Source of the DNA: an uncultured Gammaproteobacteria bacterium
GTDB lineage: Bacteria > Pseudomonadota > Gammaproteobacteria > UBA9214
Length of the DNA stretch: 64,000 nt
Assembly: GCA_963773065.1 (NCBI GenBank)
Contig: CAVYZN010000027.1
Location: 93,830 to 157,829 of the forward strand
Direction of reading: 5' to 3'
Both the position numbers and the translations under genes were made by a program. Below the pieces are notes generated by a model. It saw only the letters and a program-made list of their open reading frames with translations, was not told where the DNA came from and did no database searches. The first letter of the stretch is position 1. Every line of letters starts with the position of its first letter. Below are positions 18,529 through 32,697 of this stretch, piece after piece.

Positions 18529-18597
18529 ATTGATATACGGATTGGAGTGAGAAATATGCATGGATGGTGACAGAGGTGTATTCGCGTAAATTGCAGA

Positions 18598-21132
18598 TTG
18601 TATTCTCTCCTAGAAGGGCCATTACAAGAACAGGATGAAACGATGTCGGCTACATATCACTTGCAACTCGCAAACCTAAAACACGGAATTTTTCGCATAC
18701 GCCGGTATGCAGGGGGTGCGATCGTGCAGCGCGTGATCACCGGATTGCTGCTTATCCTTCTGATGCTGACGGGCGAGTCCCAGGCACAGACCTGCAGCAG
18801 CAGTATTCCGCCAACGACGCCCACTAGCCGCTTCACCGATAACGGTGACGGTACGGTGACGGATAGCGCGACCGGACTGATGTGGAAACAGTGCTCGGAA
18901 GGCCAGACAACGGCCGGTGCGGGCGGTTGCAGCGGCACGGCGTCGGCATTTACCTGGCAGCAAGCCTTGCAGCGGGCGCAACAGGTCAACGCGGGCGCGG
19001 CGGGCCAGCCGTTGGGTTATGCGGACTGGCGGGTGCCCAATATCAAGGAACTGATTTCCCTGGTGGAACGAGCCTGCACTTCCCCTGCCATTAACATAGG
19101 CCTGTTTCCACCCGTCCCCACATCGGAAGCGTTCGGGTTCTGGTCGGCTTCTCCCCAAGCCGACTTTCTCGGCGCCGCGTGGGTCATGTTCATCGGTCTT
19201 GGCGAATCCGGCTACGACAATGAATCCGTTGGCAATTACGTTCGTCTCGTGCGCGGCGGACAGTCTTTTTCGCCCCCGATAACTTCTCACTTCCGGCTGC
19301 CAACAAATCTAACTGATCAGACCGTTAATGTTTCATTTCCTATCACGATTGAAGCTCTGCTTTCTAACGGACAAAGAGATACAAGTTTTAATGGTAAGGT
19401 CACGCTATCAACCAACTACTCATCCCATAAAGTTTTACCTAGTTCAATTGAACTTATAAACGGTGTTGCGACGGTAGACGTTATAATTGACAGCGCTGGA
19501 ACTGGTGCGAAGGTAATCGCGATGTATGGGTCGTTAAGCGGTAGTAGCAATGCATTTGATGTCGTGAATTCGGCGGCGGTACCTACGACCCTTTTTATTC
19601 AGTTGGTTGACCAAGCTGGGCAGCCGTTCATCAGCAATTCATTTTTAGATCTTAGTGATTCCGCCAACAATTTTGAACATTATGAAAATTGGCCAAATAA
19701 TCCCGGTAATGGAAGTTACGTTTACAAAAATTTAGATGCTGACCATTATACATTTCAGGCGATTTCGGGCGTAACTGGATTCGCTAGCGAGAAAATAACC
19801 ATTGAAATAGCCACTGGCACGAGCCCACAAACACAAGTCGAAACAGTGAGGATGCGGGGTACAAGCAAGCCGCCGGTATTGCTGGTGCCGGGAATCATGG
19901 GTAGCACCATCGAAGGTATCGGACGATACAGTAACATGAATACCTACCCAGTTCTAAGTAAGAACCCTCCAACACCAGCAAATGAGTTAAAGATTTTCAA
20001 TAATTTTTTATGGTTGGCAGACGGTGGTTTTGATGATATCGCAACCGAACTAGAGACCGACTATACCGTCTACGATGTACCCTGGGATTGGCGCGTCAGT
20101 CTTACCTGTCCCGAATTTACCTCCTGCCCGAATGCATGGAGGTTGTATCTAATGAAGGCGATTGATGATGCCAAGAAGGATCCGGAACATGACGGAATCA
20201 TCAAATTCCAGAAAGTAGATATTGTGGCCCATAGCATGGGGGGGCTGCTTGTGCGGGCCTATATACAGAGTCCTGATTATAGAAATGATATCGATAAATT
20301 TGCCATGGTAGGCACACCTAACGAGGGCTCAGCAAAGGCTTATTATATGGCGGAAGGTGGTGACCCAGCTCGCGCAGATAGGATAGACGGCTGCACATTC
20401 CCAACTGATAAGCTAGGAATGAGTTGCTTTTACGCCAGGTCAACGGATGCGCTCTATAAGGCAATGAATTACGGGCAAACACCGTTTGCTCAATATGAAA
20501 ACTTTCTTACCGTACCCCCATATTATGTTATTACCACTAACTATGCAGTGGTGCCAGATCCGTCAAAACTGGTTCAGTTCTATGCCGAGAACGTGCCAAC
20601 AGCACGCCAGCTACAAGCCACCTACAGTGTTTTAAAAACAAACAGCGGGACACCCCAAAAATTATTGGCAGAGCCTAACAAATTTCTGGAAGCGTTAAAT
20701 TCTCAAAATTTGACTGATTACTATATTAATGAGTCTGATCCTAACCCGGACTCAAGAGTCAGGACAAAAATATTTATGTCAAATAATAATCTGACCTTGG
20801 AAATAATCAACGTTGCAGATCCTTTAATGTCATATCCAGAACAATATCATCCATACAAAGATGGCGTCCCAAGTGGTGAGGCCATAATGGATTACTTTGG
20901 AGATGGCACTGTGCTGGCGTGCTCTGCAGGCTTGCTTGGTGAACCAAGCTGCACGACCCGCTTGCTGTTTGGTGATATTCAATTGAATTGGGCTACGCTC
21001 CATATTGACTTCTTAAAGGGAAATGACAGTGAACACCTAGCGCTCATGAAGGCATTTAGTAAAGAGATTCATGAGTTCTTGAATCGGGGAGGTAGCAATG
21101 AAAATGAGTTCGCATTTTCCTGTCCGCCCTGA
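18598..21132 (+). CDS. DUF1566 domain fused to Ig-like domains and a PGAP1/LCAT-like alpha/beta hydrolase (true start probably downstream)
   Basis: DNGDGTVTD..TGLMWKQC, DWRVPNIKEL, RLVRGG; then PVLLVPGIMGS, IVAHSMGG, GTPNEGS, GDGTV, EH. Confidence 0.85.
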   Translation: MYSLLEGPLQEQDETMSATYHLQLANLKHGIFRIRRYAGGAIVQRVITGLLLILLMLTGESQAQTCSSSIPPTTPTSRFTDNGDGTVTDSATGLMWKQCSEGQTTAGAGGCSGTASAFTWQQALQRAQQVNAGAAGQPLGYADWRVPNIKELISLVERACTSPAINIGLFPPVPTSEAFGFWSASPQADFLGAAWVMFIGLGESGYDNESVGNYVRLVRGGQSFSPPITSHFRLPTNLTDQTVNVSFPITIEALLSNGQRDTSFNGKVTLSTNYSSHKVLPSSIELINGVATVDVIIDSAGTGAKVIAMYGSLSGSSNAFDVVNSAAVPTTLFIQLVDQAGQPFISNSFLDLSDSANNFEHYENWPNNPGNGSYVYKNLDADHYTFQAISGVTGFASEKITIEIATGTSPQTQVETVRMRGTSKPPVLLVPGIMGSTIEGIGRYSNMNTYPVLSKNPPTPANELKIFNNFLWLADGGFDDIATELETDYTVYDVPWDWRVSLTCPEFTSCPNAWRLYLMKAIDDAKKDPEHDGIIKFQKVDIVAHSMGGLLVRAYIQSPDYRNDIDKFAMVGTPNEGSAKAYYMAEGGDPARADRIDGCTFPTDKLGMSCFYARSTDALYKAMNYGQTPFAQYENFLTVPPYYVITTNYAVVPDPSKLVQFYAENVPTARQLQATYSVLKTNSGTPQKLLAEPNKFLEALNSQNLTDYYINESDPNPDSRVRTKIFMSNNNLTLEIINVADPLMSYPEQYHPYKDGVPSGEAIMDYFGDGTVLACSAGLLGEPSCTTRLLFGDIQLNWATLHIDFLKGNDSEHLALMKAFSKEIHEFLNRGGSNENEFAFSCPP

Positions 21133-22405
21133 TTGTCGTTTTTTAGGCAGAGTAGTCTGTGTTTTTTTCATACTAAGCCCATTAATTTCAAATGCCGCTC
21201 CATCACTATCGCTCTTCATACAAGGCAGAACACAGCCTTACTTAAGTCTCGTAAATGGAGGATCAATTGGCGTTAATCCGGTCACTAAGACACTGGAAAA
21301 TTCGTTAGTAAATTCGGATATTGAGATTAAGGCTGACTTATCGAATATTCAGATGGTCAATCCTGCAGCGGGCACTTATAACGTAACATTGGCTGGAACC
21401 TCCGAAGACATAATCACTATATATGCCGCATATTCTGATGATATTAAAGGTGCCCACGAAGAACAGACTGCAATGGTCTTGCAGCATGGTAATCCCTTGT
21501 ACTTCTCCGTTGTATATGATCCTCTGCAACAGCCTGCGCTACAGCTTATTTCGCCAGTAGCTCCACCTGCTTCGCCGAAAGCTGCTAATGTTGGTGGAAC
21601 TGTTCAGCTTAGATGGCTTAGCCCATCCGACCCTACCATTACTGCGTATCGTGTTTATGGACGTCTCGAAGAAATTCCCAAGTTTTCTTTATTGGGTGAG
21701 ACTCAGTCACTCTCCTTTGATACAGGCCATGTAGCGAGGAGTGGCGATGAAGGACAGCATTGGCAATATGTTGTAGTTGGAAAAAATGCGGCGAATAGGG
21801 AAAGTTTCTACTACATGCCAGTCAATAATCTCGTGCAAATGCTAGCGGTTTTTAGTGCCGCTCCAACCGAGGGTACTGTGCCTTTAAGTGTCTCATTCGA
21901 AGACTATTCTCAAGGCAGTCCGACTGCATGGGAATGGGACTTTGATGGTGATGAAATTGTAGACAGTACGGAACAGAACCCAACGCATACCTATACTCAA
22001 ACAGGGAACTATGACGTCACGCTAAAAGTAACCGGTTCCTTAGGTATCTCTACCCGCTCAGAACAGGGTTACATCACGATATTTGCGGATACTGTGGATA
22101 CCGATGGGGATGGCGTTTTCGATGGAAGCGACAACTGCAGTCTGAAGGCCAATCCGACGCAGCTCGACAGCGACCACGATGGCTTCGGCAACCAGTGTGA
22201 CTGTGATTTCAACCAGGACAATTTCTGCGGCGGCCCGGACTTCACGCTATTTATCGGCTGTTTCAATAAACCAACGGGCGGTAATCCGGTCTGCGAGGCA
22301 GCGGACATGAACGGCGACGGTTTTGTCGGGGGGCCGGACTTCACCCTGTTTGTTGGCGGGTTCAATAAACCGCCGGGGCCATCCGGGCTGGCTGTGAAGA
22401 ATTGA
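21098..22405 (+). CDS. Secreted FN3 + PKD + TSP3 + dockerin-like protein
   Basis: Signal peptide; VQLRW..P...YRVY FN3; PTAWEWDFDGD...QNPTHTY PKD; DTDGDG..DNC TSP3; C-terminal twin DxNxD..GGPDF repeats. Confidence 0.8.
   Translation: MKMSSHFPVRPDCRFLGRVVCVFFILSPLISNAAPSLSLFIQGRTQPYLSLVNGGSIGVNPVTKTLENSLVNSDIEIKADLSNIQMVNPAAGTYNVTLAGTSEDIITIYAAYSDDIKGAHEEQTAMVLQHGNPLYFSVVYDPLQQPALQLISPVAPPASPKAANVGGTVQLRWLSPSDPTITAYRVYGRLEEIPKFSLLGETQSLSFDTGHVARSGDEGQHWQYVVVGKNAANRESFYYMPVNNLVQMLAVFSAAPTEGTVPLSVSFEDYSQGSPTAWEWDFDGDEIVDSTEQNPTHTYTQTGNYDVTLKVTGSLGISTRSEQGYITIFADTVDTDGDGVFDGSDNCSLKANPTQLDSDHDGFGNQCDCDFNQDNFCGGPDFTLFIGCFNKPTGGNPVCEAADMNGDGFVGGPDFTLFVGGFNKPPGPSGLAVKN
22196..22405 (+). repeat. Dockerin-like module, copy 1 of 4 (others 24362-24559, 29113-29310, 32500-32697)
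   Basis: Near-identical DNA encoding CDCDFNQDNFCGGPDFTLFIGCFNKPTGG(N/D)PVCEAADMNGDGFVGGPD(F/Y)TLFVGGFN(K/G)PPGPSGL. Confidence 0.9.
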
Positions 22406-22488
22406 AAAACTTGTCCGATGCGAGTCGGATTTAGGGGGCATTAAAAGCGGCCAGCATTTCTCACCGGGCGGCGACAGAACGACATTAA

Positions 22489-22599
22489 GGAAGGTCTGAT
22501 TAAACCTGTCATTCCCGCGCAAGCGGGAATCTAGTCCATCCAAGATCAGTGGGTTACTGGATCCCCGCTTTCGCGGGGATGACCTGTTCAGAGTTGCTT
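22489..22599. mobile_element. MITE-like element with internal GTCATTCCCGCG..AGCGGGAATC palindromes
   Basis: Ends GGAAGGTCTGA...TCAGAGTTGCTT flanked by TAA; inverted relative at about 54583-54692 and half copy at 14549. Confidence 0.6.
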
Positions 22600-22615
22600 T
22601 AAGGGAGGAGCGTTT

Positions 22616-24559
22616 ATGGTCAGGCCACCCGAGTCAGGCGTCATCCCCGTCGTATATCCGTTAGGTTTTCCCAAAGCAAGTTTTTGCTCGTTGTCTTCAG
22701 CGTTACTCGCACTTGTGGTTGGCATTGCGAGCATATCGTGGACTGAGGTAACGGCAAATGAACAAACCCAAAAAACCACGAATCAAGCCGCGGATACAGT
22801 CGGCGGTCAGGGCGCGACATCGCTAAGACCGCGCTGGACACCGGCGAAACCCGCAAAGACCCTCCTCAAACCATGGCAGGAACGAAACCGCGTCATTGTT
22901 AAGTTTGTCGAGGGCAGCGACATTAGATTGCGGCAAGAGAGCTTAGTAAGCCTCAAGGGTCGTGATATCGGACGAGTCCGTGACGTGCTGGCCCGATATC
23001 GTATCGGCGCAAAGGAGCTTCGACGGTATTTCACCCGGTCTGAAGCATTGCTTAGCCAAGAGAAGCGCAGCGGCGAAGCGCGCAGCGGTCGTCAACTTGC
23101 CGATTTGAACTTGTATTTTGAACTTTCAGTCGCAGCGGACATCGACGTTGGCGCGTTATGCGACGACTTGAATGCCCTGGATATTGTTGAACTCGCCGAA
23201 CCGGCGCCAAGGCCGGCACCGCCGCCCGTGGACCTAGCCCCGCCGACTCCAGACTTTTCCTTCCTACAGAGTTATCGAGACGCACCACCCGGCATTGGTG
23301 TTAGCAATCTCAACATCAACGGCATAGACGGCAACGGCATTGCTTTTGTTGATATTGAATATAGCTGGCTGTTGAATCACGAAGATCTTGAATTGCCAAG
23401 TACGGCGAATATAGATACCGCAACAGCATCTGATCCCTTTTCGGACAGTAATCATGGTACCGCAGTGCTTGGCGAAATTGTCGGCGGTGATAACGGTTAC
23501 GGAGTCGTAGGAATAGCGCCGGCGGCGTCGGCTTTTGTTGCACCGGCGAGTACCCTGGAGTATGGCTACAATGTGGGACGGGCCGTCAATTTGGCTGCGA
23601 CGTCTCTGAACTCTGGTGACGTGATACTAATCGAACAACAAGCGGCTGTATGTGGAGGGGTTTGTGATCAAACGCAGGTCGGTTGTGGCCCAGTAGAGTG
23701 GAATCAATCTTTGTATGATGCGATCGCTAATGCAACTGCTAATGGTATTGTTGTCGTCGAAGCGGCCGGTAACGGTAACGTGAACCTCGACGACTCCGCC
23801 TGCCTTTCACAATTTGATCCAGCGGTGCGCGACTCCGGAGCGATCATCGTCGGCGCGGGTTTCCCTGCTACACATGAAAAATTAAGCTTTTCAACTTACG
23901 GTAACCGCGTAGATGTCCAAGGGTGGGGGGAATTTGTGACCACTACCGGCTACGGCGACAAGTTCGATCCTGGTGATGCTCGCCAACGCTACACGACTAA
24001 TTTTTCTGGAACATCGAGCGCGTCGCCCATGGTTACCGGTGCAGTCCTGGCCATTCAAGGAGTACGTAAAGCGGCTGGATTAACCCTGCTATCCCCGGAC
24101 CAACTGCGCCAGTTACTCGTTGATACCGGTACCCCTCAAGCCGGCAGCACACACATCGGCCCGTTACCGAATGTCAGCGCTGCGCTGGAACACGACAGCG
24201 ATGGAGATGGTGCCGTAGATGTACTCGACAACTGTCCCGCGATCGCCAATGCGGGCCAGGGAGATACCGATGGGGACGGTGTGGGTGATGCTTGCGATAA
24301 CTGCCTGGCAGTGGCCAATGCGGATCAGCGCGATACCGATGGCGACGGTTACGGCAACCGTTGCGACTGTGATTTCAACCAGGACAATTTCTGCGGTGGT
24401 CCGGACTTCACCCTGTTCATTGGCTGTTTCAATAAACCAACGGGCGGTAATCCGGTCTGCGAGGCAGCGGACATGAATGGCGACGGTTTTGTCGGTGGAC
24501 CCGATTTCACCCTGTTCGTTGGCGGGTTCAATGGCCCGCCAGGGCCATCCGGGCTGTGA
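22616..24559 (+). CDS. Secreted S8 subtilase + TSP3 + dockerin-like module (copy 1)
   Basis: Propeptide; catalytic D (DIE), HGTAV, AAGN, GTSSASP; C-terminal module. Confidence 0.9.
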   Translation: MVRPPESGVIPVVYPLGFPKASFCSLSSALLALVVGIASISWTEVTANEQTQKTTNQAADTVGGQGATSLRPRWTPAKPAKTLLKPWQERNRVIVKFVEGSDIRLRQESLVSLKGRDIGRVRDVLARYRIGAKELRRYFTRSEALLSQEKRSGEARSGRQLADLNLYFELSVAADIDVGALCDDLNALDIVELAEPAPRPAPPPVDLAPPTPDFSFLQSYRDAPPGIGVSNLNINGIDGNGIAFVDIEYSWLLNHEDLELPSTANIDTATASDPFSDSNHGTAVLGEIVGGDNGYGVVGIAPAASAFVAPASTLEYGYNVGRAVNLAATSLNSGDVILIEQQAAVCGGVCDQTQVGCGPVEWNQSLYDAIANATANGIVVVEAAGNGNVNLDDSACLSQFDPAVRDSGAIIVGAGFPATHEKLSFSTYGNRVDVQGWGEFVTTTGYGDKFDPGDARQRYTTNFSGTSSASPMVTGAVLAIQGVRKAAGLTLLSPDQLRQLLVDTGTPQAGSTHIGPLPNVSAALEHDSDGDGAVDVLDNCPAIANAGQGDTDGDGVGDACDNCLAVANADQRDTDGDGYGNRCDCDFNQDNFCGGPDFTLFIGCFNKPTGGNPVCEAADMNGDGFVGGPDFTLFVGGFNGPPGPSGL

Positions 24560-24807
24560 AAAATTGAATATAGGTCCGAAGCAAGCATGATTTAAGGGGC
24601 ATCAAAAGCAGCGGATTACGTAATTTCCTTTTTATAGACAGTGAGTAACAGCCCTCAATTCAATAACGGCAGTTCAATGATTCCGGCGGAGTCATGAACT
24701 TGACGAGATAATTTGTAAACTGTATTGTTGCGAAAATTAATAATAACGATAGTTGCAGTTCTTGAATTACGGAGATCCTACTAACCGAAGTAAGAGGATC
24801 TTCAATA

Positions 24808-25446
24808 ATGAACAAGTTCACTTGGTTTATCTTACGCCTTGTTGGTGGTGTCTGTGGGTGCATGTTCGCAGTTACCCAATCCCAGGCTGTAACCATTGGT
24901 CTCACACTCGGGAGCGACACGGATCCACTCACGGTAACTAACGGCGATACGATCACCTTCACGGTGGGAATGACTCCCGTGGAGGCGATTACCGGCTATA
25001 CGCTGGATATCCGCTATGATTCCACGGAGCTGGATTTTCAGACAGCCGCCCAGTTGGTACCTTTCTTCGGCGGTGCCTTTGTTCCACCTTTTAACCTAGA
25101 CCCGGCATCGACGGCGGGCGATTCGGGCAGCACCGGTTTGGCAACTTCAGACAGCGGTCGGGCTTCCGTCTTGCAGGTGAGTGATTCGCAGCCTGTAGGG
25201 GATCTTTTCAGTCTGACGTTTACCGTGTTAACGCCTGTATCCGATGGTCTGGCAGATCTGACGGTCGGGCTGCTCAATTCCGGTGCGGATGATATCAACC
25301 CTGCAGTCGGGGGTGCCGCGTTCACCATCGATCCAGACACGGTCAGTGCATCGATCGGGGCCGTTCCTGTTCCTGCCGCCATCTGGCTTTTCGGTTCCGG
25401 TCTGATGGGGATGATTGGACTAGCCAGAAGCAAAAAAGCGGCTTAA
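24808..25446 (+). CDS. Cohesin-like domain protein with VPxPA-CTERM sorting signal (copy 1)
   Basis: Signal peptide; GDTITFTV...GYTLDIRYDSTELDF...GDLFSLTFTV cohesin pattern; VPVPAAIWLFGSGL-TM-RSKK tail. Confidence 0.72.
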   Translation: MNKFTWFILRLVGGVCGCMFAVTQSQAVTIGLTLGSDTDPLTVTNGDTITFTVGMTPVEAITGYTLDIRYDSTELDFQTAAQLVPFFGGAFVPPFNLDPASTAGDSGSTGLATSDSGRASVLQVSDSQPVGDLFSLTFTVLTPVSDGLADLTVGLLNSGADDINPAVGGAAFTIDPDTVSASIGAVPVPAAIWLFGSGLMGMIGLARSKKAA

Positions 25447-25549
25447 CAGCTTCAGACGTGATGACGTGATTGCGGCGGCCTGTCGGTCGCCGTATTCGTT
25501 TGGTGGTTGGTGGTGTTGCCCTGAGTTTGGCCGACCCTGTCACATTACC

Positions 25550-25873
25550 TCACAGCACCGCATCCAGTCCCTTGCGATCGATCAGATTGAGCAGCTTCAA
25601 GGACGGGCCGCTCGGCTTCTTGTCGCCTATCTCCCACTTCCGCACGGTCGACAGACTCGTGTTGAGCACGGCTGCCAGAACGGCCTGGCTTAGATGGAGG
25701 TTTTTCCGTAGCGCGCGGATCTTCGCGGCGTTGTATTCGGGAATGGGTTCCATGCACAGCGCGCCGTACTTCTGCATCTTGCGCTTGTCGATGAATCCGA
25801 GACGATGCAAGTCACTCGCCATCTCGTGGACGGCTTCGAGGATTCGGCTCTTGGCCTTACGTTTGGTGGTCAT
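25550..25873 (-). CDS. HigA-like Xre HTH antitoxin
   Basis: SRILEAVHE...IRALRKNLHLSQAVLAAVLNTSLSTVRKWEIGDKKPSGPSLKLL. Confidence 0.85.
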   Translation of the reverse strand: MTTKRKAKSRILEAVHEMASDLHRLGFIDKRKMQKYGALCMEPIPEYNAAKIRALRKNLHLSQAVLAAVLNTSLSTVRKWEIGDKKPSGPSLKLLNLIDRKGLDAVL

Positions 25874-25924
25874 GGCAAATCTCCTGCAGCGAATCGTCTT
25901 CGAGCGCCTCACTCAACTGCCGAG
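25860..25924 (-). pseudogene. 3' remnant of the cognate RelE/HigB-like toxin
   Basis: Minus frame ARQLSEALEDDSLQEICHD overlaps the HTH start and is cut at 25925. Confidence 0.4.
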
Positions 25925-26031
25925 CAGTGGACTTTACGGATAAGGGCTCTTATTCTTCTATACATACTGCGGTTTGTTAGTAGATACCGAAGACACATTG
26001 AGCCAGGCGAACCGTTAACGAGGACCACACC

Positions 26032-26280
26032 ATGACGACGTTGCAAGTCAAACTGGAGTTACCTGATCCCCTTGCCAAAGAGGCGGCGACCATGGGTTTG
26101 CTGGAACCACAGGCTTTACAAACACTGTTGCGCGAGGCGGTGCGTAATCGCCACATCGCACGGCTCGCGGAAGCGCGTCGCAAGATCGCTGAGGCGGGCA
26201 TTCCGCCTATGACGATGGAAGAGATTCAAGCCGAGATCGAGGCTGTCCGCGCCGGGCGCCGCACAAAAAATACTGACTGA
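26032..26280 (+). CDS. Putative antitoxin
   Basis: VKLELPDPLAKEA...MTMEEIQAEI; coupled to the PIN gene. Confidence 0.7.
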   Translation: MTTLQVKLELPDPLAKEAATMGLLEPQALQTLLREAVRNRHIARLAEARRKIAEAGIPPMTMEEIQAEIEAVRAGRRTKNTD

Positions 26281-26699
26281 TGCGGCTGGTACTCGATACG
26301 AACATCGTCGCCTCGGGTCTCCTGTGGAACGGTGTGCCGGCACAATTGGTCGATGCGGCGCGGGCGGATGAAATAGAGATATTCACCAGTCGCATGTTGC
26401 TTGCCGAACTCACGCGCGTTTTGTGCCGCGCCAAGTTCGCCAAGGTAATCGCCGTGAGCGGTTTGTCGCTCGATGAGTTGATGCTTAGCTACGCCGAACT
26501 CGCTACCCTCGTTACACCCGAACCAATTCCCGCAACCGTCCTCAACGATCCCGATGACGATCACGTACTCGCCTGCGCGCTCGCAGCCAAGGCCGACCTC
26601 ATCGTCTCCGGAGATCGACATCTGCTTACGCTAAAAAGTTTTCAGCAGATTCCGATCGTGACGGCGGCGGAAGCCGTGCGGATCACCAGCGGACGATAA
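26280..26699 (+). CDS. PIN-domain (VapC-like) toxin
   Basis: RLVLDTNI...DPDDDHVLACA...IVSGDRHLL. Confidence 0.88.
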   Translation: MRLVLDTNIVASGLLWNGVPAQLVDAARADEIEIFTSRMLLAELTRVLCRAKFAKVIAVSGLSLDELMLSYAELATLVTPEPIPATVLNDPDDDHVLACALAAKADLIVSGDRHLLTLKSFQQIPIVTAAEAVRITSGR

Positions 26700-26825
26700 C
26701 CGTTTCTGGTCCCCCGGGTTACGTGAACTGTTCCGCCAGCGATGACTATCTCTTCGCCATGGCCCAGGCGCGCGAGGTGCTGGTAGGCAGCGCGGTGGCA
26801 GATTCATATCGACGAGCAGTTTCAT
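26700..26825 (-). pseudogene. Truncated DUF5615-type PIN toxin
   Basis: MKLLVDMNLPPR start coupled to DUF433, then degenerate. Confidence 0.5.
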
Positions 26826-27052
26826 GCATTGGCCAGCATGACCTCGCGTTCCTCGGCGCGCCATGCCGCGTAGCGAAGCGCTTGCATGATGTCCTCGCGT
26901 TCGAGGTAGGGATAGTCGGTGAGGATTTCATCGACGCTGCGTCCCGCTCCGATCTGGCCGACGATCATGCCAACCGTGAGGCGCATGCCACGGATGCACG
27001 CCTTGCCGCCCATCACGTCAGGCTGCTGGGTGATGCGATCCAATCGTCCCAT
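26822..27052 (-). CDS. DUF433 antitoxin
   Basis: RITQQPDVMGGKACIRGMRLTV...EILTDYPYLEREDI. Confidence 0.88.
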   Translation of the reverse strand: MGRLDRITQQPDVMGGKACIRGMRLTVGMIVGQIGAGRSVDEILTDYPYLEREDIMQALRYAAWRAEEREVMLANA

Positions 27053-27387
27053 GCTCCGCTCCTTATCGAAACTCATTGCCTTGCTATCGGATTGATATAG
27101 GGGTTCAAGTTACCTATAAGCAAACAGGAACGATCATCCCTGTGCAAGAAGAATCATTGGCATACGTATAAATACGTAGAGAAAAATTTCCTTGCTCAAA
27201 CGGAGATTCTGTGGCTAATACCTAAGATAACAGCAGTGCCATTGTTACGATAAAGGTATGATGAGTTCAGCGATTCTAGTTTCATCTTACTGTTGCTCGA
27301 CGTTGATTCTTTGCCGTAGTCGGCGATGCAGCTCCTAAATGCCAGGCCAGGAACAAGGTCACAGAGAAATAACAGGGAGGAGCGTTT

Positions 27388-29310
27388 ATGGTCAGGCCGC
27401 TCGAGTCAGGCGTCATCCCCGTTGTATATCCGTCAGGTTTTCCCAGAGCAAGTTTTTGCTCGTTGTCTTCAGCGTTACTCGCACTTGTGGTTGGCATTGC
27501 GAGCATCTGTTGGACTGAGGTAACGGCAAACGAACAAAACCAGAAGACCACGAATCAAGCCGCGGCTACAGTCGGCGGTCAGGGCGCGACATCGTCAAAA
27601 CCGCGCTGGACACCGGTGAAACCGGCAAAGACCCTCCTCAAACCATGGCAGGAACGAAACCGGGTCATTGTTAAGTTTGTCGAGGGCAGCGAGATTAGAT
27701 TGCGGCAAGAGGGCTTAGTAAGCCTCAAGGGTCGTGATATCGGACAAGTCCGCGCCGTGCTGGCTCGATACCGTATCGGCGCAAAGGAGCTTCGACGGTA
27801 TTTCACCCGATCCGAAGCATTGCTGAACCAAGAGAAGCACAGCGGCGAAGCGCGCAGCGGGCGTCAACTCGCCGATTTGAACTTGTATTTTGAAATTTCA
27901 GTCGCGGCGGACGTTGATGCTGGCGCGTTATGCGATGATTTGAATGCCTTGGATATTGTTGAACTCGCCGAACCGGCGCCAATGCCGGCACCGCCGCCCG
28001 TGGATCTAGCCCCGCCAACTCCAGACTTTTCCTTCCTACAGAGTTATCGAGACGCACCACCCGGTATTGGTGTTAGCAATCTAAACATCGGCGGTATTGA
28101 TGGCAACGGCATTGCGTTTGCGGATGTGGAATTCAGTTGGCTATTGAACCACGAGGACCTTGAACTCCCGAGTACCACCAATATCGACACGGCAACTGCA
28201 TCTGATCCCTTTTCGGACAGTAATCATGGGACCGCGGTGCTTGGCGAAATTGTCGGCGGTGATAACGGCTACGGGGTTATAGGAATAACGCCGGCGGCGT
28301 CGGCTTTCGTTGCACCGGCGAATACCGTAGAGTTCGGCGAGAATGAGGCACGGGCTATTAACTTGGCCGCGGCGACTCTGAACGCGGGTGATGCGATACA
28401 GATCGAACTACAAAATACAGTATGCGGGTTGAATAATGGTCCAATGGAGTGGTACCAACCCGAGTTTGATGCGATCGCGAATGCAACTGCCAATGGGATT
28501 GTTGTCGTCGAAGCGGCCGGGAATGGAGGCGTGAATTTAGACGATCCCAGTTGTGAATCGCGCTTTGACAGAGCAGTACGTGACTCCGGCGCGATCATCG
28601 TCGGCGCGGGTTTCCCAGCTACACATGAAAAATTAGACTTTTCCGATTACGGTAACCGCGTGGATGTTCAAGGGTGGGGGGTATTGGTGACCACTACCGG
28701 CTACGGCGACAAGTTCGATCCTGGTGATATTCGCCAACGCTACACGACTAATTTTACTGGAACATCGAGCGCGTCGCCCATGGTTACCGGTGCGATCCTG
28801 GCCATTCAAGGAGTACGTAAAGCGGCTGGATTAACCCTGCTATCCCCGGACCAACTGCGCCAGTTACTCGTTGATACCGGTACCCCTCAAGCCGGCAGCA
28901 CACACATCGGCCCGTTACCGAATGTCAGCGCTGCGCTGGAACACGACAGCGATGGAGATGGTGCCGTAGATGTACTCGACAACTGTCCCGCGATCGCCAA
29001 TGCGGGCCAGGGAGATACCGATGGGGACGGTGTGGGTGATGCTTGCGATAACTGCCTGGCAGTGGCCAATGCGGATCAGCGCGATACCGATGGCGACGGT
29101 TACGGCAACCGTTGCGACTGTGATTTCAACCAGGACAATTTCTGCGGTGGTCCGGACTTCACCCTGTTCATTGGCTGTTTCAATAAACCAACGGGCGGTA
29201 ATCCGGTCTGCGAGGCAGCGGACATGAATGGCGACGGTTTTGTCGGTGGACCGGATTTCACCCTGTTCGTTGGCGGGTTCAATGGCCCGCCAGGGCCATC
29301 CGGGCTGTGA
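27388..29310 (+). CDS. Secreted S8 subtilase + TSP3 + dockerin-like module (copy 2)
   Basis: Same architecture and catalytic residues as 22616-24559. Confidence 0.9.
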   Translation: MVRPLESGVIPVVYPSGFPRASFCSLSSALLALVVGIASICWTEVTANEQNQKTTNQAAATVGGQGATSSKPRWTPVKPAKTLLKPWQERNRVIVKFVEGSEIRLRQEGLVSLKGRDIGQVRAVLARYRIGAKELRRYFTRSEALLNQEKHSGEARSGRQLADLNLYFEISVAADVDAGALCDDLNALDIVELAEPAPMPAPPPVDLAPPTPDFSFLQSYRDAPPGIGVSNLNIGGIDGNGIAFADVEFSWLLNHEDLELPSTTNIDTATASDPFSDSNHGTAVLGEIVGGDNGYGVIGITPAASAFVAPANTVEFGENEARAINLAAATLNAGDAIQIELQNTVCGLNNGPMEWYQPEFDAIANATANGIVVVEAAGNGGVNLDDPSCESRFDRAVRDSGAIIVGAGFPATHEKLDFSDYGNRVDVQGWGVLVTTTGYGDKFDPGDIRQRYTTNFTGTSSASPMVTGAILAIQGVRKAAGLTLLSPDQLRQLLVDTGTPQAGSTHIGPLPNVSAALEHDSDGDGAVDVLDNCPAIANAGQGDTDGDGVGDACDNCLAVANADQRDTDGDGYGNRCDCDFNQDNFCGGPDFTLFIGCFNKPTGGNPVCEAADMNGDGFVGGPDFTLFVGGFNGPPGPSGL

Positions 29311-29558
29311 AAAATTGAATATAGGTCCGAAGCAAGCATGATTTAAGGGGCATCAAAAGCCGCGGATTACGTAATTTCCTTTTTATAGACAGTGAGTAAC
29401 AGTCCTGAATCCAATAACAGCAGTTCAATGATTCCGGCGGAGTCATGAACTTGACGAGATAATTTGTAAACTGTATTGTTGCGAAAATTAATAATAACGA
29501 TAGTTGCAGTTCTTGAATTACGGAGATCCTACTAACCGAAGTAAGAGGATCTTCAATA

Positions 29559-30197
29559 ATGAACAAGTTCACTTGGTTTATCTTACGCCTTGTTGGTGGT
29601 GTCTGTGGGTGCATGTTCGCAGTTACCCAATCCCACGCTGTAACCATTGGTCTCACACTCACGAGCGACACGGATCCACTCACGGTAACTAACGGCGATA
29701 CGATCACCTTTACGGTGGGAATGACCCCCCTGGAGGCGATTACCGGCTATACGCTGGATATCCGCTATGATTCCACGGAGCTAGATTTTCAGACAGCCAC
29801 ACAGTTGGTACCCTTCTTCGGCGGCGCCTTCGTTCCACCTTTTAACCTGGACCCGGCATCGACTGCGGGCGATTCGGGCAGCACCGGTTTGGCAACTTCA
29901 GACAGCGGTCGGGCTTCCGTCCTGCAGGTGAGTGATTCGCAGCCTGTAGGGGACCTTTTCAGTCTGACATTTACCGTGTTGACGCCTGTATCCGATGGTC
30001 TGTCCGATCTGACGGTCGGGCTGCTCAATTCCGGTGCGGATGATATCAACCCCGCCGTCGGGGGTGCCGCGTTCACCATCGATCCAGATACGGTCAGTGC
30101 ATCGATCGGGGCTGTTCCTGTCCCCGCCGCCATCTGGCTTTTCGGCTCCGGACTGCTGGGGTTGATTGGAATAGCCAGAAGCAAAAAAGCGACTTAA
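29559..30197 (+). CDS. Cohesin-like VPxPA-CTERM protein (copy 2)
   Basis: Near-identical to 24808-25446. Confidence 0.72.
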   Translation: MNKFTWFILRLVGGVCGCMFAVTQSHAVTIGLTLTSDTDPLTVTNGDTITFTVGMTPLEAITGYTLDIRYDSTELDFQTATQLVPFFGGAFVPPFNLDPASTAGDSGSTGLATSDSGRASVLQVSDSQPVGDLFSLTFTVLTPVSDGLSDLTVGLLNSGADDINPAVGGAAFTIDPDTVSASIGAVPVPAAIWLFGSGLLGLIGIARSKKAT

Positions 30198-30339
30198 CAG
30201 TTTCAGACGTGATGACGTGATTGCGGCGGCCTGTCGGTCGCCGTATTTCTTTGATGGTGTAACTCTGAGTTTGGCCGATCCTGATGCCATGGTCAGATAA
30301 CAGCCAAGAAATGAAAATAACAGCCCCTCGCCGGGCAGT

Positions 30340-30501
30340 TGCTTGGCCGGTCATTGGCGTTGTCCTCCTCGCGGATGCCCAGTTCCTCGTCATCCAGATA
30401 ACAGGCCGGGTCCTCCCACCACGGGTCGCCGGTCAACTGGAAGGCGCGCACCCGCGTATTGCCACCGCGATGTCGCGGAAGCCGCGGACGCGGTAGCGAC
30501 C
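30340..30501 (-). pseudogene. Duplicated 3' end of nirJ
   Basis: Encodes [32 protein letters not shown], identical to the NirJ C-terminus at about 32880-32975 but with synonymous differences. Confidence 0.85.
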
Positions 30502-30861
30502 GACTCGCCAATCTCAGTGGACTTTACGGAAAAGGGCTTTTATTCCTATACATGCCGGGCTTGTTTAACTGACCGCAGTCAGGACAAAAAAATTCAATAC
30601 TAATACTAAGGAATCAGGCAAGGATGCCGGCCAGGCAGTAGCGGTAGGGATGACCTTTGCGTGTGAGTGAGGAAAGAAAGAAAACCGGCGAAAGGGAGAC
30701 GTATTCAGATCGGATATGGGCCAGCAGCCGGGGGAGTCAGCCAGGTATTCAGGGGAAGAGGTCTGACGGATAGTGGCCTTTTTCGGTTGGAGTCATAGGG
30801 AATTGGTTGGCTATACTTTCATTGTGGACAACCTCATCGGGTCACAGGACATGACCACATC

Positions 30862-32697
30862 ATGAAGCGGCGTATTTCACCATTGCTTCGCAGCCTGTGT
30901 CTGGCGTCGATCTTTCTGGCACCCCTCGCCATGGCGGAGATCGGGCCTGATCCACCCAAACTCTCTCCCGAAGGCAAACTCGGGATCATGGGCGACAGTC
31001 TGGCCTTGGGTATCCACGCCTCGGAAATGTGCGGCAATGCCGACGCCTATGAATGCGCGCAGCAGGCCCTTGGCGCCTCCAGTCCCGACTGGAGTTATGT
31101 GGCAGCCGACAAGAGCTGGTCGATTGCCAGCCTGCTCGGCTTTGACCAGGCGCATATCGTTGCGGCCTATGTTGGTGGCGCAGAATGGAAGGACGCGCTC
31201 AACCAGGCCGTGACCGTTATGGCCGATCCTCAGGTCGAGGCCGTCTTCATCGGCCTCGGGGCAAACAATGTCTGCGTGCCACAGGGTCATGATTACAGTG
31301 ATGATCTTGCGACCATTGCCGGGCACATCGACGCGACCCTGACTTATCTCACGGATCACCTGCCCGCCGGGGGGCGTATCTACTGGAGCGGGGTGCTGGA
31401 TGTCCTGCAGCTTCGCGAACTCATGCGCGGGCGCGACCACAATTACTGGTTTGAAACCTGCCAGGGTGCCTGGGACCTGGACGCGAACAAGATCAAGGAC
31501 GGGGCGGCGAATGATGTGTGTGATCACATCTTCAATCACACCGCCTGCCAGCTTACCAGCGCCGTCGAGGAAGCCAAGGACGCGCTGACTGATCTACTGC
31601 TCAATACCTGGCGTGACCTCGAGGGCGTGGATGAGGGGCCCTGTGGCAAGATCCTGAGCAGCCGTTCGACCGACGCTGACCGGGAGGAGGCCCGACAATT
31701 CAACCTCGCGCTTAACCAACTGATGTCCGCCAAGGCGGCGGAATACGACGGCCGGAACGGCGTCGCGGTGTATTACAGTGACCGCATCTTCGAGGCATCG
31801 GCTAACCTCAGGCCCTATCATGTCTCCCGCCTGGACTGTTTTCACCCGAGCCGGGCCGGGCAGATATTCCTTGCCAATGAAACCTGGAGGGGATTTAACC
31901 CCCTCACCGAGTCGGCCGGCCGCTACTTTTTTGACGAATTTGACAGCCAGGACTATTGCGCCCAGGAATACACCACGTGGGGTTCATGCTGGACCGAGAT
32001 CGGCGAGAATAACGGGCCCTCGGCCGGTGATATCCAGATCAACGTGCATGAGCTCCGGGTGCGGGACAAGGACAAGGGTATCATGCGCAGCCTCGACCTG
32101 GACGGCATGCAAGCCGCCTGGCTCCAGTTCAACTGGCGGCGCGACGGACTGGACAACAATGACGATTATGTCTCAATCGACGTGTCACCGGATGCCGGCA
32201 TGACCTGGTTTCAACAGGACCGCATCAAGGGCGATGGCGATGACTACAATACCCACCGCGGCTACTACTATGACATCACCCCCTATGCCACGGGGAACAC
32301 GCTGCTCCGTTTCAAGAGCTCGAGTGATCTGGGTGATCACGACGAGGTGTTCTTTGACAATATAACCGTCTTTGGCTGGGGTCCAATCGTGCAGACCCAG
32401 GACACCGACGGCGACGGGGTTCCCGATGCGAGCGACAACTGCATCAGCCAATCGAATGCCGACCAGCGCGACACGGACGGCGACGGCTACGGTAACCTTT
32501 GCGACTGTGATTTCAACCAGGACAATTTCTGCGGCGGTCCGGACTTCACTCTCTTCATCGGCTGTTTCAATAAACCAACAGGCGGTGATCCGGTCTGCGA
32601 GGCAGCGGATATGAATGGCGACGGTTTTGTCGGTGGGCCAGATTACACTTTGTTTGTTGGCGGGTTCAATGGCCCGCCGGGGCCATCCGGGCTGTGA
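30862..32697 (+). CDS. Secreted SGNH/GDSL hydrolase + beta-sandwich + TSP3 + dockerin-like module
   Basis: GDSL, GLGANN and DCFHPS motifs; C-terminal module. Confidence 0.85.
   Translation: MKRRISPLLRSLCLASIFLAPLAMAEIGPDPPKLSPEGKLGIMGDSLALGIHASEMCGNADAYECAQQALGASSPDWSYVAADKSWSIASLLGFDQAHIVAAYVGGAEWKDALNQAVTVMADPQVEAVFIGLGANNVCVPQGHDYSDDLATIAGHIDATLTYLTDHLPAGGRIYWSGVLDVLQLRELMRGRDHNYWFETCQGAWDLDANKIKDGAANDVCDHIFNHTACQLTSAVEEAKDALTDLLLNTWRDLEGVDEGPCGKILSSRSTDADREEARQFNLALNQLMSAKAAEYDGRNGVAVYYSDRIFEASANLRPYHVSRLDCFHPSRAGQIFLANETWRGFNPLTESAGRYFFDEFDSQDYCAQEYTTWGSCWTEIGENNGPSAGDIQINVHELRVRDKDKGIMRSLDLDGMQAAWLQFNWRRDGLDNNDDYVSIDVSPDAGMTWFQQDRIKGDGDDYNTHRGYYYDITPYATGNTLLRFKSSSDLGDHDEVFFDNITVFGWGPIVQTQDTDGDGVPDASDNCISQSNADQRDTDGDGYGNLCDCDFNQDNFCGGPDFTLFIGCFNKPTGGDPVCEAADMNGDGFVGGPDYTLFVGGFNGPPGPSGL

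What the first reader, a model, noticed from the sequence alone, without database searches (positions are those of the whole stretch)
21098..32697. Candidate cellulosome-like cohesin-dockerin protease/esterase display system anchored by a VPxPA-CTERM tail
Seen: four secreted proteins with three unrelated N-terminal bodies (FN3/PKD, S8 protease x2, SGNH hydrolase) end in the same ~65 aa module after TSP3 Ca-binding repeats. The module has two dockerin-type repeats (DFNQDNFCGGPDFTLF and DMNGDGFVGGPDFTLF). Both repeats carry Gly-Pro at positions 10-11, the dockerin recognition positions. Behind each protease lies a 212 aa protein made only of a signal peptide, a cohesin-pattern beta-sandwich and a VPVPAAIWLFGSGL-TM-basic tail. 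Known: dockerins bind cohesins in clostridial cellulosomes, symmetric repeats allow dual binding, and VPLPA/PEP-CTERM tails are exosortase sorting signals. Inference: a single-cohesin anchor clips interchangeable non-glycosidase enzymes to a Gram-negative surface. I do not know of such a system being characterised in a gammaproteobacterium.
Basis: partly seen in the sequence, partly recalled or inferred. Interest (0 to 1): 0.92.

Follow-up and report, generated by a model that had tools for sequence, protein, structure and literature searches.

The report
Exosortase-sorted cohesin with dockerin-tagged enzymes
An uncultured gammaproteobacterium encodes small "socket" proteins (cohesin fold with a Gram-negative surface-sorting tail) next to secreted proteases and other enzymes that all end in the matching "plug" (a dockerin), which suggests a plug-and-socket way of pinning enzymes to the cell surface or slime layer, though binding has not been measured.

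Summary
Four secreted proteins (PKD, two S8 proteases, SGNH esterase) end in the same 67-aa module after thrombospondin-type-3 repeats, and a 212-aa protein follows each protease.

The module is a divergent dockerin. Its profile hits solved dockerins (E 1.9e-8). Its model matches dockerin 2y3n_B (TM 0.80, rmsd 1.0 Å). Seven relatives pass Pfam Dockerin_1.

Its VPVPA tail belongs to the PEP-CTERM class. The genome's only exosortase is the VPLPA-specific XrtD type.

Cohesin-CTERM genes lie beside dockerin-tagged genes with unrelated cargos in 6 of 11 related contigs and 4 of 7 other module-bearing genomes.

Predicted binding has only weak support: 0.32 against 0.00 for the best control. Surface anchoring is inferred.

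It is not a cellulosome: there is one cohesin, no scaffoldin and no glycosidases.

No paper in the searched library links cohesin or dockerin to PEP-CTERM. This scan has noted about 22 similar pairs. I rate it a new variant of a known kind.

The parts
21098..22405 (+). Secreted PKD-domain protein (435 aa) ending in a TSP3 repeat plus the dockerin module (module about nt 22190-22390)
   Evidence: ORF. PKD_4 56.4 bits, Dockerin_1 21.9 bits (cut-off 22.9); module 96% identical to the protease module.
22616..24559 (+). S8 subtilase A (647 aa) with two TSP3 repeats and a C-terminal dockerin module (nt 24356-24556)
   Evidence: Peptidase_S8 74.0 bits, TSP_3 33.3 bits, Dockerin_1 16.6 bits; dockerin profile and fold; the two Ca-loop repeats.
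24808..25446 (+). Cohesin-CTERM protein A (212 aa): leader 1-27, cohesin domain about aa 28-184 (nt 24889-25359), VPVPA-TM-basic tail aa 185-212
27388..29310 (+). S8 subtilase B (640 aa), paralogue of A, with an identical TSP3 plus dockerin tail (module nt 29107-29307)
   Evidence: Peptidase_S8 71.8 bits; body 446 of 508 aa identical, tail 132 of 132 identical.
29559..30197 (+). Cohesin-CTERM protein B (212 aa), 203 of 212 residues identical to A
   Evidence: VPLPA-CTERM 24.5 bits (cut-off 25.35).
30862..32697 (+). SGNH/GDSL hydrolase (611 aa) with a TSP3 repeat and the dockerin module (nt 32494-32694)
   Evidence: Lipase_GDSL 31.8 bits, Dockerin_1 16.1 bits; its orthologue in MAG locus L019 lies directly upstream of the cohesin-CTERM gene.

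Best explanation
This is a minimal, non-cellulosomal cohesin-dockerin tethering system of a diderm bacterium.

Four secreted proteins (a PKD protein, two subtilases and an SGNH esterase) carry a C-terminal calcium-binding dockerin behind thrombospondin-type-3 spacer repeats. The 212-aa proteins are single cohesins. Their VPVPA-hydrophobic-basic tail is a VPLPA/PEP-CTERM sorting signal, recognised by the genome's XrtD-type exosortase.

The likely sequence of events is as follows. The cohesin is exported, and its tail is processed by the exosortase. The cohesin then ends up on the outer surface or in the exopolysaccharide matrix. The dockerin-tagged enzymes, secreted separately, bind it through the Ca-loaded dockerin.

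Shown here: homology and fold of both modules, the class of the tail, the presence of the matching exosortase type, and conserved gene pairing with changing cargo.

Inferred: that the two modules bind each other, that the tail is processed, and where the cohesin finally sits (cell surface or matrix).
For: Dockerin module:
- Both repeats have the D1-N3-D5-D12 loop followed by a helix.
- The A2 profile hits solved dockerins: 2y3n_B E 1.9e-8, and 6kgc_B, 6kg9 and 6kge at about 1e-5.
- The model (pLDDT 84.5) has dockerins as its 18 best Foldseek rows, led by 2y3n_B with TM 0.80 and rmsd 1.0 Å over 58 columns, though no row has E <= 1e-3.
- Seven relatives of the module in paired or neighbouring loci pass Pfam Dockerin_1 at 23.4-35.0 bits.

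Cohesin:
- 11 of 12 PDB sequence hits of profile A1 are cohesins, best E 5.4e-7.
- Foldseek gives 46 hits at E <= 1e-3. All listed rows but one (9ifr, a CLIPPER domain) are cohesins.

Tail:
- 9 of 33 family members have VPEP in place of VPVPA at the same position.
- The genome has 12 VPLPA-CTERM-like tails, 5 of them above cut-off.
- It has a single exosortase, whose best match is the VPLPA-CTERM-specific XrtD model (333 + 224 bits over two ORFs).

Gene pairing:
- In this genome, 3 of 3 cohesin-like genes adjoin a module gene.
- Among loci found through the cohesin, 6 of 11 have a module-bearing neighbour. The other 5 are contigs of 1.1-2.4 kb with little flank.
- Among genomes found through the module, 4 of 7 have a small CTERM-tailed protein adjacent or one gene away. 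G133 adds one more pair.

Cargo varies: SGNH esterase (L019), di-haem peroxidases, multicopper oxidases, an LVIVD propeller and CarboxypepD_reg giants. Elsewhere the module sits on S8, M23, C13, GDSL, beta-helix, PilY1 and other bodies.

In the duplicated unit the tail is identical at 132 of 132 residues and the cohesin at 203 of 212, while the protease body is identical at 446 of 508.

Complex prediction: weak support. The score is 0.32 (runs 0.29, 0.32, 0.36) against 0.00 for the best of 3 controls. The runs agree in at least 100% of their contacts, and the partner's pLDDT is at least 73. That mark was reached by 116 of 157 solved complexes and 2 of 215 mismatched pairs. At 0.60 or under, it was reached by only 18 of the 157 and by both mismatches that passed. 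Cohesin-dockerin complexes are solved, so this pass may reflect likeness to them and not binding of this pair.
Against: - No curated model reaches its cut-off on the window's own proteins: Dockerin_1 16.1-21.9 vs 22.9; Cohesin 22.9 and 21.7 vs 24.1; PEP-CTERM 19.5 and 19.2 vs 20.7; VPLPA-CTERM at most 24.5 vs 25.35.
- The complex score is in the band where a pass is 'more often wrong than right unless likely beforehand'.
- 3 of 7 module-bearing genomes (G010, G129, G245) showed no CTERM or cohesin-like neighbour in the 9-13 kb fetched.
- Of the four that did, the G124 neighbour matched only the C-terminal third of the family profile, tail included, and G204 and G068 gave only weak cohesin-body hits (E 1.4e-4 and 7.2e-4).
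- The XrtD gene reads as two overlapping ORFs. It may be broken, or this may be an assembly indel; another gene in the window, 566-2785, is split the same way.
- Gly-Pro at the positions that contact the cohesin in clostridial dockerins has no precedent among the solved complexes I saw, so the contact surface may differ.
- Only two cohesin genes serve four module proteins, and no expression data exist.
Confidence: 0.6

Rival explanations
1. Both modules are true homologues of dockerin and cohesin but do not bind each other. The dockerin-like tail would be a generic Ca-stabilised C-terminal domain that binds something else, such as exopolysaccharide, a host or prey surface, or another receptor. 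The cohesin-like CTERM protein would be an independent matrix or adhesin protein. The adjacency would then reflect co-regulation or shared carriage on a mobile island.
For: Binding is only weakly supported. 3 of 7 module-bearing genomes show no cohesin-like neighbour in the fetched flanks. Among representatives, 38 of 149 carry more than one module and 24 of 149 carry it away from the C-terminus, so the module has uses beyond a simple C-terminal tag. The island has lower GC and sits next to traT and IS/TA genes.
Against: The pairing recurs in distant genomes with unrelated cargo and in both gene orders. A paralogous, much diverged pair (31% and 46% identity) exists on another contig of the same genome. 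The docking parts are the best conserved parts of the duplicated unit. In every family where a partner is known, cohesin and dockerin bind each other (established knowledge of the families; solved complexes listed).
Confidence: 0.22
2. The 67-aa module is mainly a C-terminal secretion or sorting signal recognised by an export machine, in the manner of the T9SS C-terminal domain. The conserved PPGPSG end would be a processing site.
For: 125 of 149 representatives carry it within 25 aa of the C-terminus, on very diverse bodies. PGP[SA] lies in the last 30 residues of 89 of 150, and P84, G85 and P86 are invariant or nearly so in A2. This feature is not part of the canonical dockerin as I recall it.
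Against: 13 of 149 carry it near the N-terminus and 11 elsewhere. L027, L029 and L058 have it internal or N-terminal. Homology and fold are those of dockerins. No dedicated secretion genes lie in the island.
Confidence: 0.08
3. The 212-aa protein is a partner specific to the protease, such as an inhibitor, chaperone or immunity protein, and not a general anchor.
For: In the window it follows each of the two subtilase genes and neither of the other two module genes.
Against: In L019 the 79%-identical orthologue follows the SGNH esterase gene. In other loci the neighbour is an oxidase, a peroxidase, a propeller or a giant protein. The fold is cohesin, with a sorting tail.
Confidence: 0.05

Closest known systems
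Single-cohesin cell-surface anchoring proteins of Gram-positive cellulosome producers: Clostridium thermocellum OlpA and OlpC (PDB 3ul4, 4dh2) and Ruminococcus flavefaciens ScaE (2zf9)
   Different: Their anchors are SLH modules or a sortase LPXTG signal in a monoderm wall (recalled, not tested here). Here the anchor is a VPLPA/PEP-CTERM exosortase signal in a diderm. The cargo here is proteases, an esterase and a PKD protein, not glycoside hydrolases or scaffoldins.
Non-cellulosomal cohesin-dockerin pairs: Archaeoglobus fulgidus (cohesin 2xdh) and Clostridium perfringens NagJ/NagH and related enzymes (2ozn, 2jh2, 2vo8, 2w1n)
   Different: In those systems the cohesin is a module inside larger enzymes or soluble proteins. 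None has an exosortase tail, as far as the entry titles and my recall go.
'Planctosome' hypothesis for freshwater Planctomycetes (Andrei et al. 2019, PMC6461901; passages read)
   Same: An in-silico proposal of a cohesin-dockerin complex with TSP3 repeats that holds peptidases on a diderm surface.
   Different: There the anchor is a 2,210-aa protein with a lamin-tail domain plus an adaptor protein, and the peptidases are M12B and M14. No PEP-CTERM or exosortase link is made. Here the anchor is a 212-aa single cohesin with a CTERM tail.
PEP-CTERM/exosortase sorting, VPLPA-CTERM with XrtD branch (NCBIfam TIGR03370 and TIGR04152)
   Same: The tail architecture (motif, hydrophobic helix, basic cluster) and the matching exosortase type in the genome.
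   Different: PEP-CTERM proteins are mostly of unknown function. None is described in the searched library as carrying a cohesin.

Membership tests
Dockerin (Pfam PF00404 Dockerin_1) | Score at or above the Pfam gathering cut-off (22.9 bits) | tested here: not met
   21.9, 16.6, 18.2 and 16.1 bits for the four window proteins. Seven relatives of the module in other loci do pass, at 23.4-35.0 bits.
Dockerin (Pfam PF00404 Dockerin_1) | Two tandem repeats, each a 12-residue EF-hand-like Ca loop (D1, N/D3, D5, D12) followed by a helix | tested here: met
   DFNQDNFCGGPD and DMNGDGFVGGPD, each followed by FTLF...; 16 of 24 positions are identical between the repeats; helices at 37-46, 55-60 and 70-79 of the 89-aa model.
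Dockerin (Pfam PF00404 Dockerin_1) | Sequence-profile and fold similarity to solved dockerins | tested here: met
   2y3n_B E 1.9e-8 and 6kgc_B E 8.3e-6; the 18 best rows are dockerins, with 2y3n_B at TM 0.80 and rmsd 1.0 Å, though all Foldseek E-values are above 1e-3 (short domain).
Dockerin (Pfam PF00404 Dockerin_1) | Ca-dependent binding to a cohesin | not testable with these tools
   Only a prediction is available. One search gave weak support: 0.32 against 0.00 for the best control.
Cohesin (Pfam PF00963) | Score at or above the Pfam gathering cut-off (24.1 bits) | tested here: not met
   22.9 and 21.7 bits, aligned over the first strands only (profile positions 11-49).
Cohesin (Pfam PF00963) | Nine-stranded beta-sandwich of the cohesin type, with profile similarity to solved cohesins | tested here: met
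Cohesin (Pfam PF00963) | Binds a dockerin | not testable with these tools
   See (weak support only).
PEP-CTERM / VPLPA-CTERM sorting signal (PF07589, TIGR02595, TIGR03370) | C-terminal motif (VPxPA or PEP), hydrophobic helix and basic cluster at the very end of a protein with a signal peptide | tested here: met
   ...AVPVPAAIWLFGSGLMGMIGLARSKKAA; 9 of 33 homologues have VPEP at the same place; helix 191-211.
PEP-CTERM / VPLPA-CTERM sorting signal (PF07589, TIGR02595, TIGR03370) | Score at or above the curated cut-offs | tested here: not met
   PF07589 19.5 and 19.2 vs 20.7; TIGR02595 15.5 and 15.7 vs 16; TIGR03370 18.3 and 21.4 (protein scan) or 21.3 and 24.5 (genome scan) vs 25.35. All are just below.
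PEP-CTERM / VPLPA-CTERM sorting signal (PF07589, TIGR02595, TIGR03370) | A cognate exosortase is encoded in the same genome | tested here: met
   one PF09721 match at 250.7 bits; the best model is XrtD (VPLPA-CTERM-specific), 333.4 + 224.4 bits over two overlapping ORFs (cut-off 400 for the fused protein), so it is either frameshifted or split.
Cellulosome | Scaffoldin with several cohesins that integrates dockerin-bearing glycoside hydrolases, usually with a CBM | tested here: not met
   There is one cohesin per protein. No longer relative of the cohesin was found (weak evidence). The cargo is S8, SGNH and PKD, and no GH or CBM hit was found.

The most novel reading that the evidence does not exclude
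Small cohesins sorted by exosortases, together with dockerin tags, form a general and widespread plug-and-socket system. With it, diderm bacteria would pin secreted enzymes, oxidoreductases and giant adhesins to their surface or exopolysaccharide matrix. That would give a whole class of PEP-CTERM proteins its first molecular function. The locus here represents an XrtD/VPLPA branch. Its dockerins have Gly-Pro at the recognition positions and are kept identical across paralogous enzymes. A second, diverged cohesin-dockerin pair in the same genome hints at orthogonal specificities.
Probability: 0.5. Interest if true: 0.8.

Novelty: new variant of a known kind. Interest (0 to 1): 0.62.

Why it matters
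Cohesin-dockerin pairing is the assembly principle of Gram-positive cellulosomes and a widely used tool in protein engineering. What the many non-cellulosomal cohesins and dockerins do is described as unknown (PMC5244752, passage read). The function of most PEP-CTERM proteins is also open.

A conserved pairing of an exosortase-sorted cohesin with dockerin-tagged enzymes links the two questions and makes both testable with two small recombinant domains.

The module family is large: 1053 representative clusters at E <= 1e-3. It sits on proteases, lipases, oxidases and adhesin-like giants. The mechanism, if real, would therefore bear on how environmental diderms organise extracellular enzymes in biofilms and flocs. 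It could also supply new orthogonal cohesin-dockerin pairs that fold in an oxidising, Gram-negative envelope.

Tried and rejected
- RNA evidence: no RNA holder listed.
- Longer, scaffoldin-like relatives of the cohesin: none at E <= 1e-3 among 3234 candidates of 372-2000 aa. The tool itself calls this weak evidence.
- ESM Atlas on the cohesin body: best scores 0.88-0.85, all below the 0.9 level. One cluster has Pfam Cohesin on 13% of its members. This is a lead only.
- The class-wide scan with the whole cohesin family profile was swamped by the CTERM tail: 29 of 300 genomes matched, nearly all over profile positions about 170-208 only. It is therefore useless as a co-occurrence count for the cohesin body. 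I used neighbourhoods of module hits instead.
- NCBIfam 'GC-type dockerin' NF041540: 15.3 bits vs 29, in the PKD protein only. Not a member.
- The MtsC, MtsD and Omp28 hits reflect only the TSP3 repeats.
- Peer et al. 2009 (PMC3035643) and Haft et al. 2012 (PMC3256604) are not held. What I say about them is recalled, or taken from passages of papers that cite them.
- I considered and rejected a protease-specific inhibitor or chaperone role for the 212-aa protein, because the cargo differs in L019 and other loci. I also rejected chance, because the pairing recurs.
- A correlation between cohesin and dockerin divergence across the pairs was not pursued. Shared descent would produce it without any binding.

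Full report
**1. What is there**

They are a 435-aa protein (21098-22405), a 647-aa protein (22616-24559), a 212-aa protein (24808-25446), a 640-aa protein (27388-29310), a second 212-aa protein (29559-30197) and a 611-aa protein (30862-32697), all on the + strand.

Pfam names the bodies: PKD_4 (56.4 bits), Peptidase_S8 (74.0 and 71.8 bits) and Lipase_GDSL (31.8 bits). All four end in thrombospondin-type-3 repeats followed by the same 67-aa module. TSP_3 scores 33.3 and 33.2 bits in the proteases, above the 25-bit cut-off, and 21.6 and 20.3 bits in the other two.

The module is identical in the two proteases and 96% identical in the other two proteins. Its two halves read DFNQDNFCGGPD-FTLFIGCFN and DMNGDGFVGGPD-FTLFVGGFN. 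They are identical at 16 of 24 positions, with Gly-Pro at loop positions 10-11 in both.

The protease-plus-212-aa unit is a tandem duplication (about 22590-25480 and 27360-30230), separated by three toxin-antitoxin-like genes. Within the duplicate, the protease bodies are identical at 446 of 508 residues. The TSP3-plus-module tails are identical at 132 of 132 and the 212-aa proteins at 203 of 212.

**2. The module is a dockerin**

On the window's proteins, Pfam Dockerin_1 scores 16.1-21.9 bits, below the 22.9 cut-off.

An exhaustive HMMER search with the 69-aa module found 1053 representative proteins at E <= 1e-3, 125 at E <= 1e-10 and 28 at E <= 1e-30. Of the 150 listed, 149 match my local module HMM. 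In 125 the module ends within 25 residues of the C-terminus, in 13 it lies near the N-terminus, and in 11 elsewhere. Thirty-eight carry more than one module, and 53 of 150 have the GGPD[FY][TS]LF (Gly-Pro) form.

A profile of 39 module sequences (A2) hits thrombospondin/COMP through its TSP3 part. Through its module part (profile positions 63-118) it hits solved dockerins: 2y3n_B at E 1.9e-8, three C. acetobutylicum dockerin sequences (6kgc_B, 6kg9_A, 6kge_D) at about 1e-5, and 5k39_B, 2b59_B and others. Generic EF-hand proteins follow at weaker scores.

The AlphaFold model (pLDDT 84.5, three helices) has dockerins as its 18 best Foldseek rows. The best is 2y3n_B, with TM 0.80 normalised to the target and rmsd 1.0 Å over 58 columns. 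No row reaches E <= 1e-3, as is usual for so short a domain.

Seven more canonical relatives of the module, in the paired loci described below, pass Pfam Dockerin_1 at 23.4-35.0 bits.

One feature that I do not recall from clostridial dockerins is a nearly invariant PPGPSG end (PGP[SA] in the last 30 residues of 89 of 150 representatives).

**3. The 212-aa protein is a cohesin with an exosortase tail**

Pfam Cohesin scores 22.9 and 21.7 bits against a cut-off of 24.1.

The word-indexed search gave 51 hits at E <= 1e-3. Thirty-three match the cohesin body (74-100% of the query covered) and all come from metagenomes or MAGs. The other 18 share only part of the query (14-49% covered).

I aligned 31 of those 33 with the window protein and the contig-C14 paralogue, leaving out fragments P0024 and P0029 (A1, 33 rows).

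The A1 profile hits 12 PDB sequences at E <= 10. Eleven are cohesins or scaffoldins, with 3l8q best at E 5.4e-7. The model (pLDDT 84.4, pTM 0.71) has a leader helix, nine strands and a C-terminal helix at 191-211.

The tail AVPVPAAIWLFGSGL...RSKKAA scores just under the cut-offs of PF07589, TIGR02595 and TIGR03370. In 9 of the 33 aligned family members the same position reads VPEP, the canonical PEP-CTERM motif. I take this as good evidence that the tail is a sorting signal of that class.

The genome (3.84 Mb, 33 contigs, 90.9% complete) has 12 VPLPA-CTERM-like tails, 5 above cut-off. It has a single exosortase gene. Its best NCBIfam model is the VPLPA-CTERM-specific exosortase XrtD, but the match is spread over two overlapping ORFs (333.4 and 224.4 bits; the cut-off for the fused protein is 400). 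An acyl-CoA dehydrogenase gene in the window is split in the same manner. I cannot tell a real frameshift from an assembly indel.

**4. Are the two linked?**

*In this genome.* The genome holds four intact modules, all in this island. It also holds one remnant on contig C14, more canonical in sequence (DLNNDGATNTLDLNLL...) and 46% identical. That gene is cut by an ISL3-like transposase ORF and has a TGA inside the match. Directly downstream of the remnant lies a 193-aa cohesin-like protein with an IPIPA tail, 31% identical to the window's (Pfam Cohesin 18.3 bits over the full profile). So all 3 cohesin-like CTERM genes of the genome adjoin a module gene.

*Loci found through the cohesin.* There are 11 such loci outside the genome. 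Six have a module-bearing neighbour:
- L019: an SGNH esterase upstream, in a MAG labelled Gammaproteobacteria.
- L021 and L022: a module gene upstream.
- L023: a module gene downstream.
- L027 and L029: 1200-aa proteins with the module near the N-terminus.

The other five (L020, L024, L025, L026, L028) are contigs of 1.1-2.4 kb, where little of the neighbours can be seen.

*Genomes found through the module.* The module occurs in 8 of 301 sampled genomes of the class, own genome included. I fetched 9-14 kb around the hits in the other seven. Four of the seven have a small CTERM-tailed protein adjacent to a module gene (G124, G204, G068) or one gene away (G182). G010, G129 and G245 show none.

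The cohesin nature of these neighbours is weaker:
- G204 and G068: local cohesin-body HMM E 1.4e-4 and 7.2e-4.
- G182: Pfam Cohesin 19.7 bits.
- G124: only the C-terminal third plus the tail aligns.

G133, found through the tail, adds another adjacent pair (cohesin-body E 2e-4; Dockerin_1 32.6 bits).

*Cargo.* The cargo in these pairs is unrelated: di-haem cytochrome c peroxidases, multicopper oxidases, an LVIVD propeller and CarboxypepD_reg giants. Among 43 module-bearing representatives scanned, the bodies include S8 (3), GDSL (2), M23, C13 (2), beta-helix, NHL, PilY1, DUF11, FG-GAP, CARDB, PKD, fn3, Lcl_C and FGE-sulfatase. Eight have no Pfam hit.

*Recognition positions.* Loop positions 10-11 differ between subfamilies (GP, NL, NI, NF, SL, NT and others), while the Ca ligands stay the same. 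This is the pattern expected if these positions set specificity, but that is an inference.

**5. Predicted binding**

The verdict was weak support. The median score was 0.32 (runs 0.29, 0.32, 0.36) and the best of three controls scored 0.00. The runs agree in at least 100% of their contacts, and the partner's pLDDT is at least 73.

By the tool's calibration, 116 of 157 solved complexes and 2 of 215 mismatched pairs reached the mark. At 0.60 or below, only 18 of the 157 did, along with both of the passing mismatches. Because cohesin-dockerin complexes are in the PDB, the pass may reflect likeness only. I count it as a small increment.

**6. Mechanism proposed**

I think it most likely (about 0.6) that the 212-aa proteins are exported and their tails are handled by the XrtD-type exosortase. 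They would then sit on the outer surface or in the exopolysaccharide matrix. There they would capture the dockerin-tagged subtilases, esterase and PKD protein through a Ca-dependent cohesin-dockerin contact, with the TSP3 repeats acting as a Ca-stiffened spacer.

[quoted passage not shown] The final attachment of such proteins is not settled, so 'surface' versus 'matrix' stays open.

The rivals are a non-binding pair that is only co-inherited (0.22), the module as a secretion signal (0.08), and a protease-specific partner (0.05).

**7. Comparison with what is known**

The system works like the single-cohesin anchoring proteins of Gram-positive cellulosome producers (OlpA, OlpC, ScaE). It is not a cellulosome: there is one cohesin, no scaffoldin was found and there are no glycosidases or CBMs.

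Non-cellulosomal cohesins and dockerins are known from all three domains of life. I could not read the survey by Peer et al. 2009. A paper citing it says their function outside the cellulosome is not known (PMC5244752, passage read).

The genome paper of the gammaproteobacterium Saccharophagus degradans noted two dockerin-like and six cohesin-like ORFs and left binding untested (PMC2386152, passage read).

The nearest published idea is the 'planctosome', an in-silico model of a cohesin-dockerin peptidase complex with TSP3 repeats on a planctomycete surface. It uses a different, 2,210-aa anchor and has no exosortase link (PMC6461901, passages read). An Omnitrophota preprint describes giant proteins rich in dockerin and TSP3 repeats (10.1101/2023.11.21.568195, passages read).

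In the library searched:
- No paper holds cohesin + dockerin + PEP-CTERM.
- None holds 'cohesin domain' + PEP-CTERM.
- None holds dockerin + PEP-CTERM (none of the 6 papers listed holds both).
- The one paper with dockerin + exosortase treats the two separately.

Most subscription journals are not in that library.

**8. Earlier notes of this scan**

A word search returned 22 earlier findings in at least 20 genomes describing PEP-CTERM-anchored cohesins beside dockerin-bearing proteins. The taxa include Verrucomicrobiota, Planctomycetota, Omnitrophota, Myxococcota and a marine gammaproteobacterium. One of them is marked 'part of it fell' on a later check.

These are AI notes and not independent evidence. 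They do mean that this window is a further instance of a class the scan already knows. No note concerns a look-alike of this locus or mentions XrtD/VPLPA.

**9. Verdict**

Binding and localisation are not shown. I rate it a new variant of a known kind, with interest 0.62.

The points specific to this locus are:
- the XrtD/VPLPA branch of exosortase sorting;
- the Gly-Pro dockerin subtype, with 53 of the 150 listed representatives sharing its motif;
- perfectly conserved docking tails on diverged paralogous proteases;
- a second, diverged cohesin-dockerin pair in the same genome.

Noticed in passing
window 17600-32700, with flanks 13406-15495 and 32809-40761: The island has lower GC (0.45-0.58 against about 0.62) and interrupts a nitrite-reductase / haem d1 cluster. 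On one side are a truncated nirS-like gene (13406-14434, -) and a traT-like lipoprotein gene (14740-15495, -). On the other are nirJ-like radical SAM (32809-34290, -), NirD/L/G/H-like genes (34029-36188, -) and a 950-aa nirS with an N-terminal Fer4_5 domain (37909-40761, -). It looks horizontally acquired.
   Followed up: partly
window 30345-30468 and 32855-32978: A 124-nt direct repeat (87% identical) places a copy of the 3' end of the nirJ-like gene on the far side of the SGNH esterase gene. This suggests the esterase gene was inserted or recombined in separately from the rest of the island.
   Followed up: no
window 25550-27100: Three toxin-antitoxin-like genes sit between the two duplicated protease-cohesin units: HTH_3 (25550-25912, -), a PIN domain (26280-26699, +) with an 82-aa upstream partner (26032-26280), and DUF433 (26822-27076, -).
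   Followed up: no
window 17638-18528 and 18598-21132: Two Lcl_C-domain proteins lie just upstream. The second (844 aa) also has an LCAT/alpha-beta-hydrolase lipase domain. Neither carries the dockerin module, although a module-bearing Lcl_C protein exists elsewhere (P0057).
   Followed up: partly
window 566-2785 (-); L018 762-2361 (-) = G000:C6: An acyl-CoA dehydrogenase gene reads as three overlapping ORFs, and the XrtD exosortase as two. Either the assembly has indel errors or these genes are frameshifted. This matters for whether the exosortase is functional.
   Followed up: partly
L015 (G000:C14:37657-40857), 707-3048 (-): This is a third, diverged cohesin-CTERM gene (193 aa, IPIPA tail). 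Its upstream dockerin-bearing gene has lost its body to an ISL3-like transposase ORF and has a TGA inside the dockerin.
   Followed up: partly
L005 (G000:C11:1717-4818), 3-710 (+) and 883-1605 (+): Two further VPVP-tailed proteins lie in tandem at a contig start. The first is 31% identical to the 212-aa protein over residues 31-209 (E 4.6e-4). No module gene is in view.
   Followed up: no
L027 860-4558 and L029 74-3706 (metagenome contigs): These are about 1200-aa CarboxypepD_reg proteins that carry the dockerin-like module near the N-terminus (aa about 100-180) and not at the C-terminus. Each is followed by a cohesin-like PEP-CTERM protein.
   Followed up: partly
alignment A2; window 24536-24556 and equivalents: A nearly invariant PPGPSG(L) motif ends the module. 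It lies in the last 30 residues of 89 of 150 representatives. Some distant members continue with xCAGxxPCP. Its role is unexplained.
   Followed up: partly
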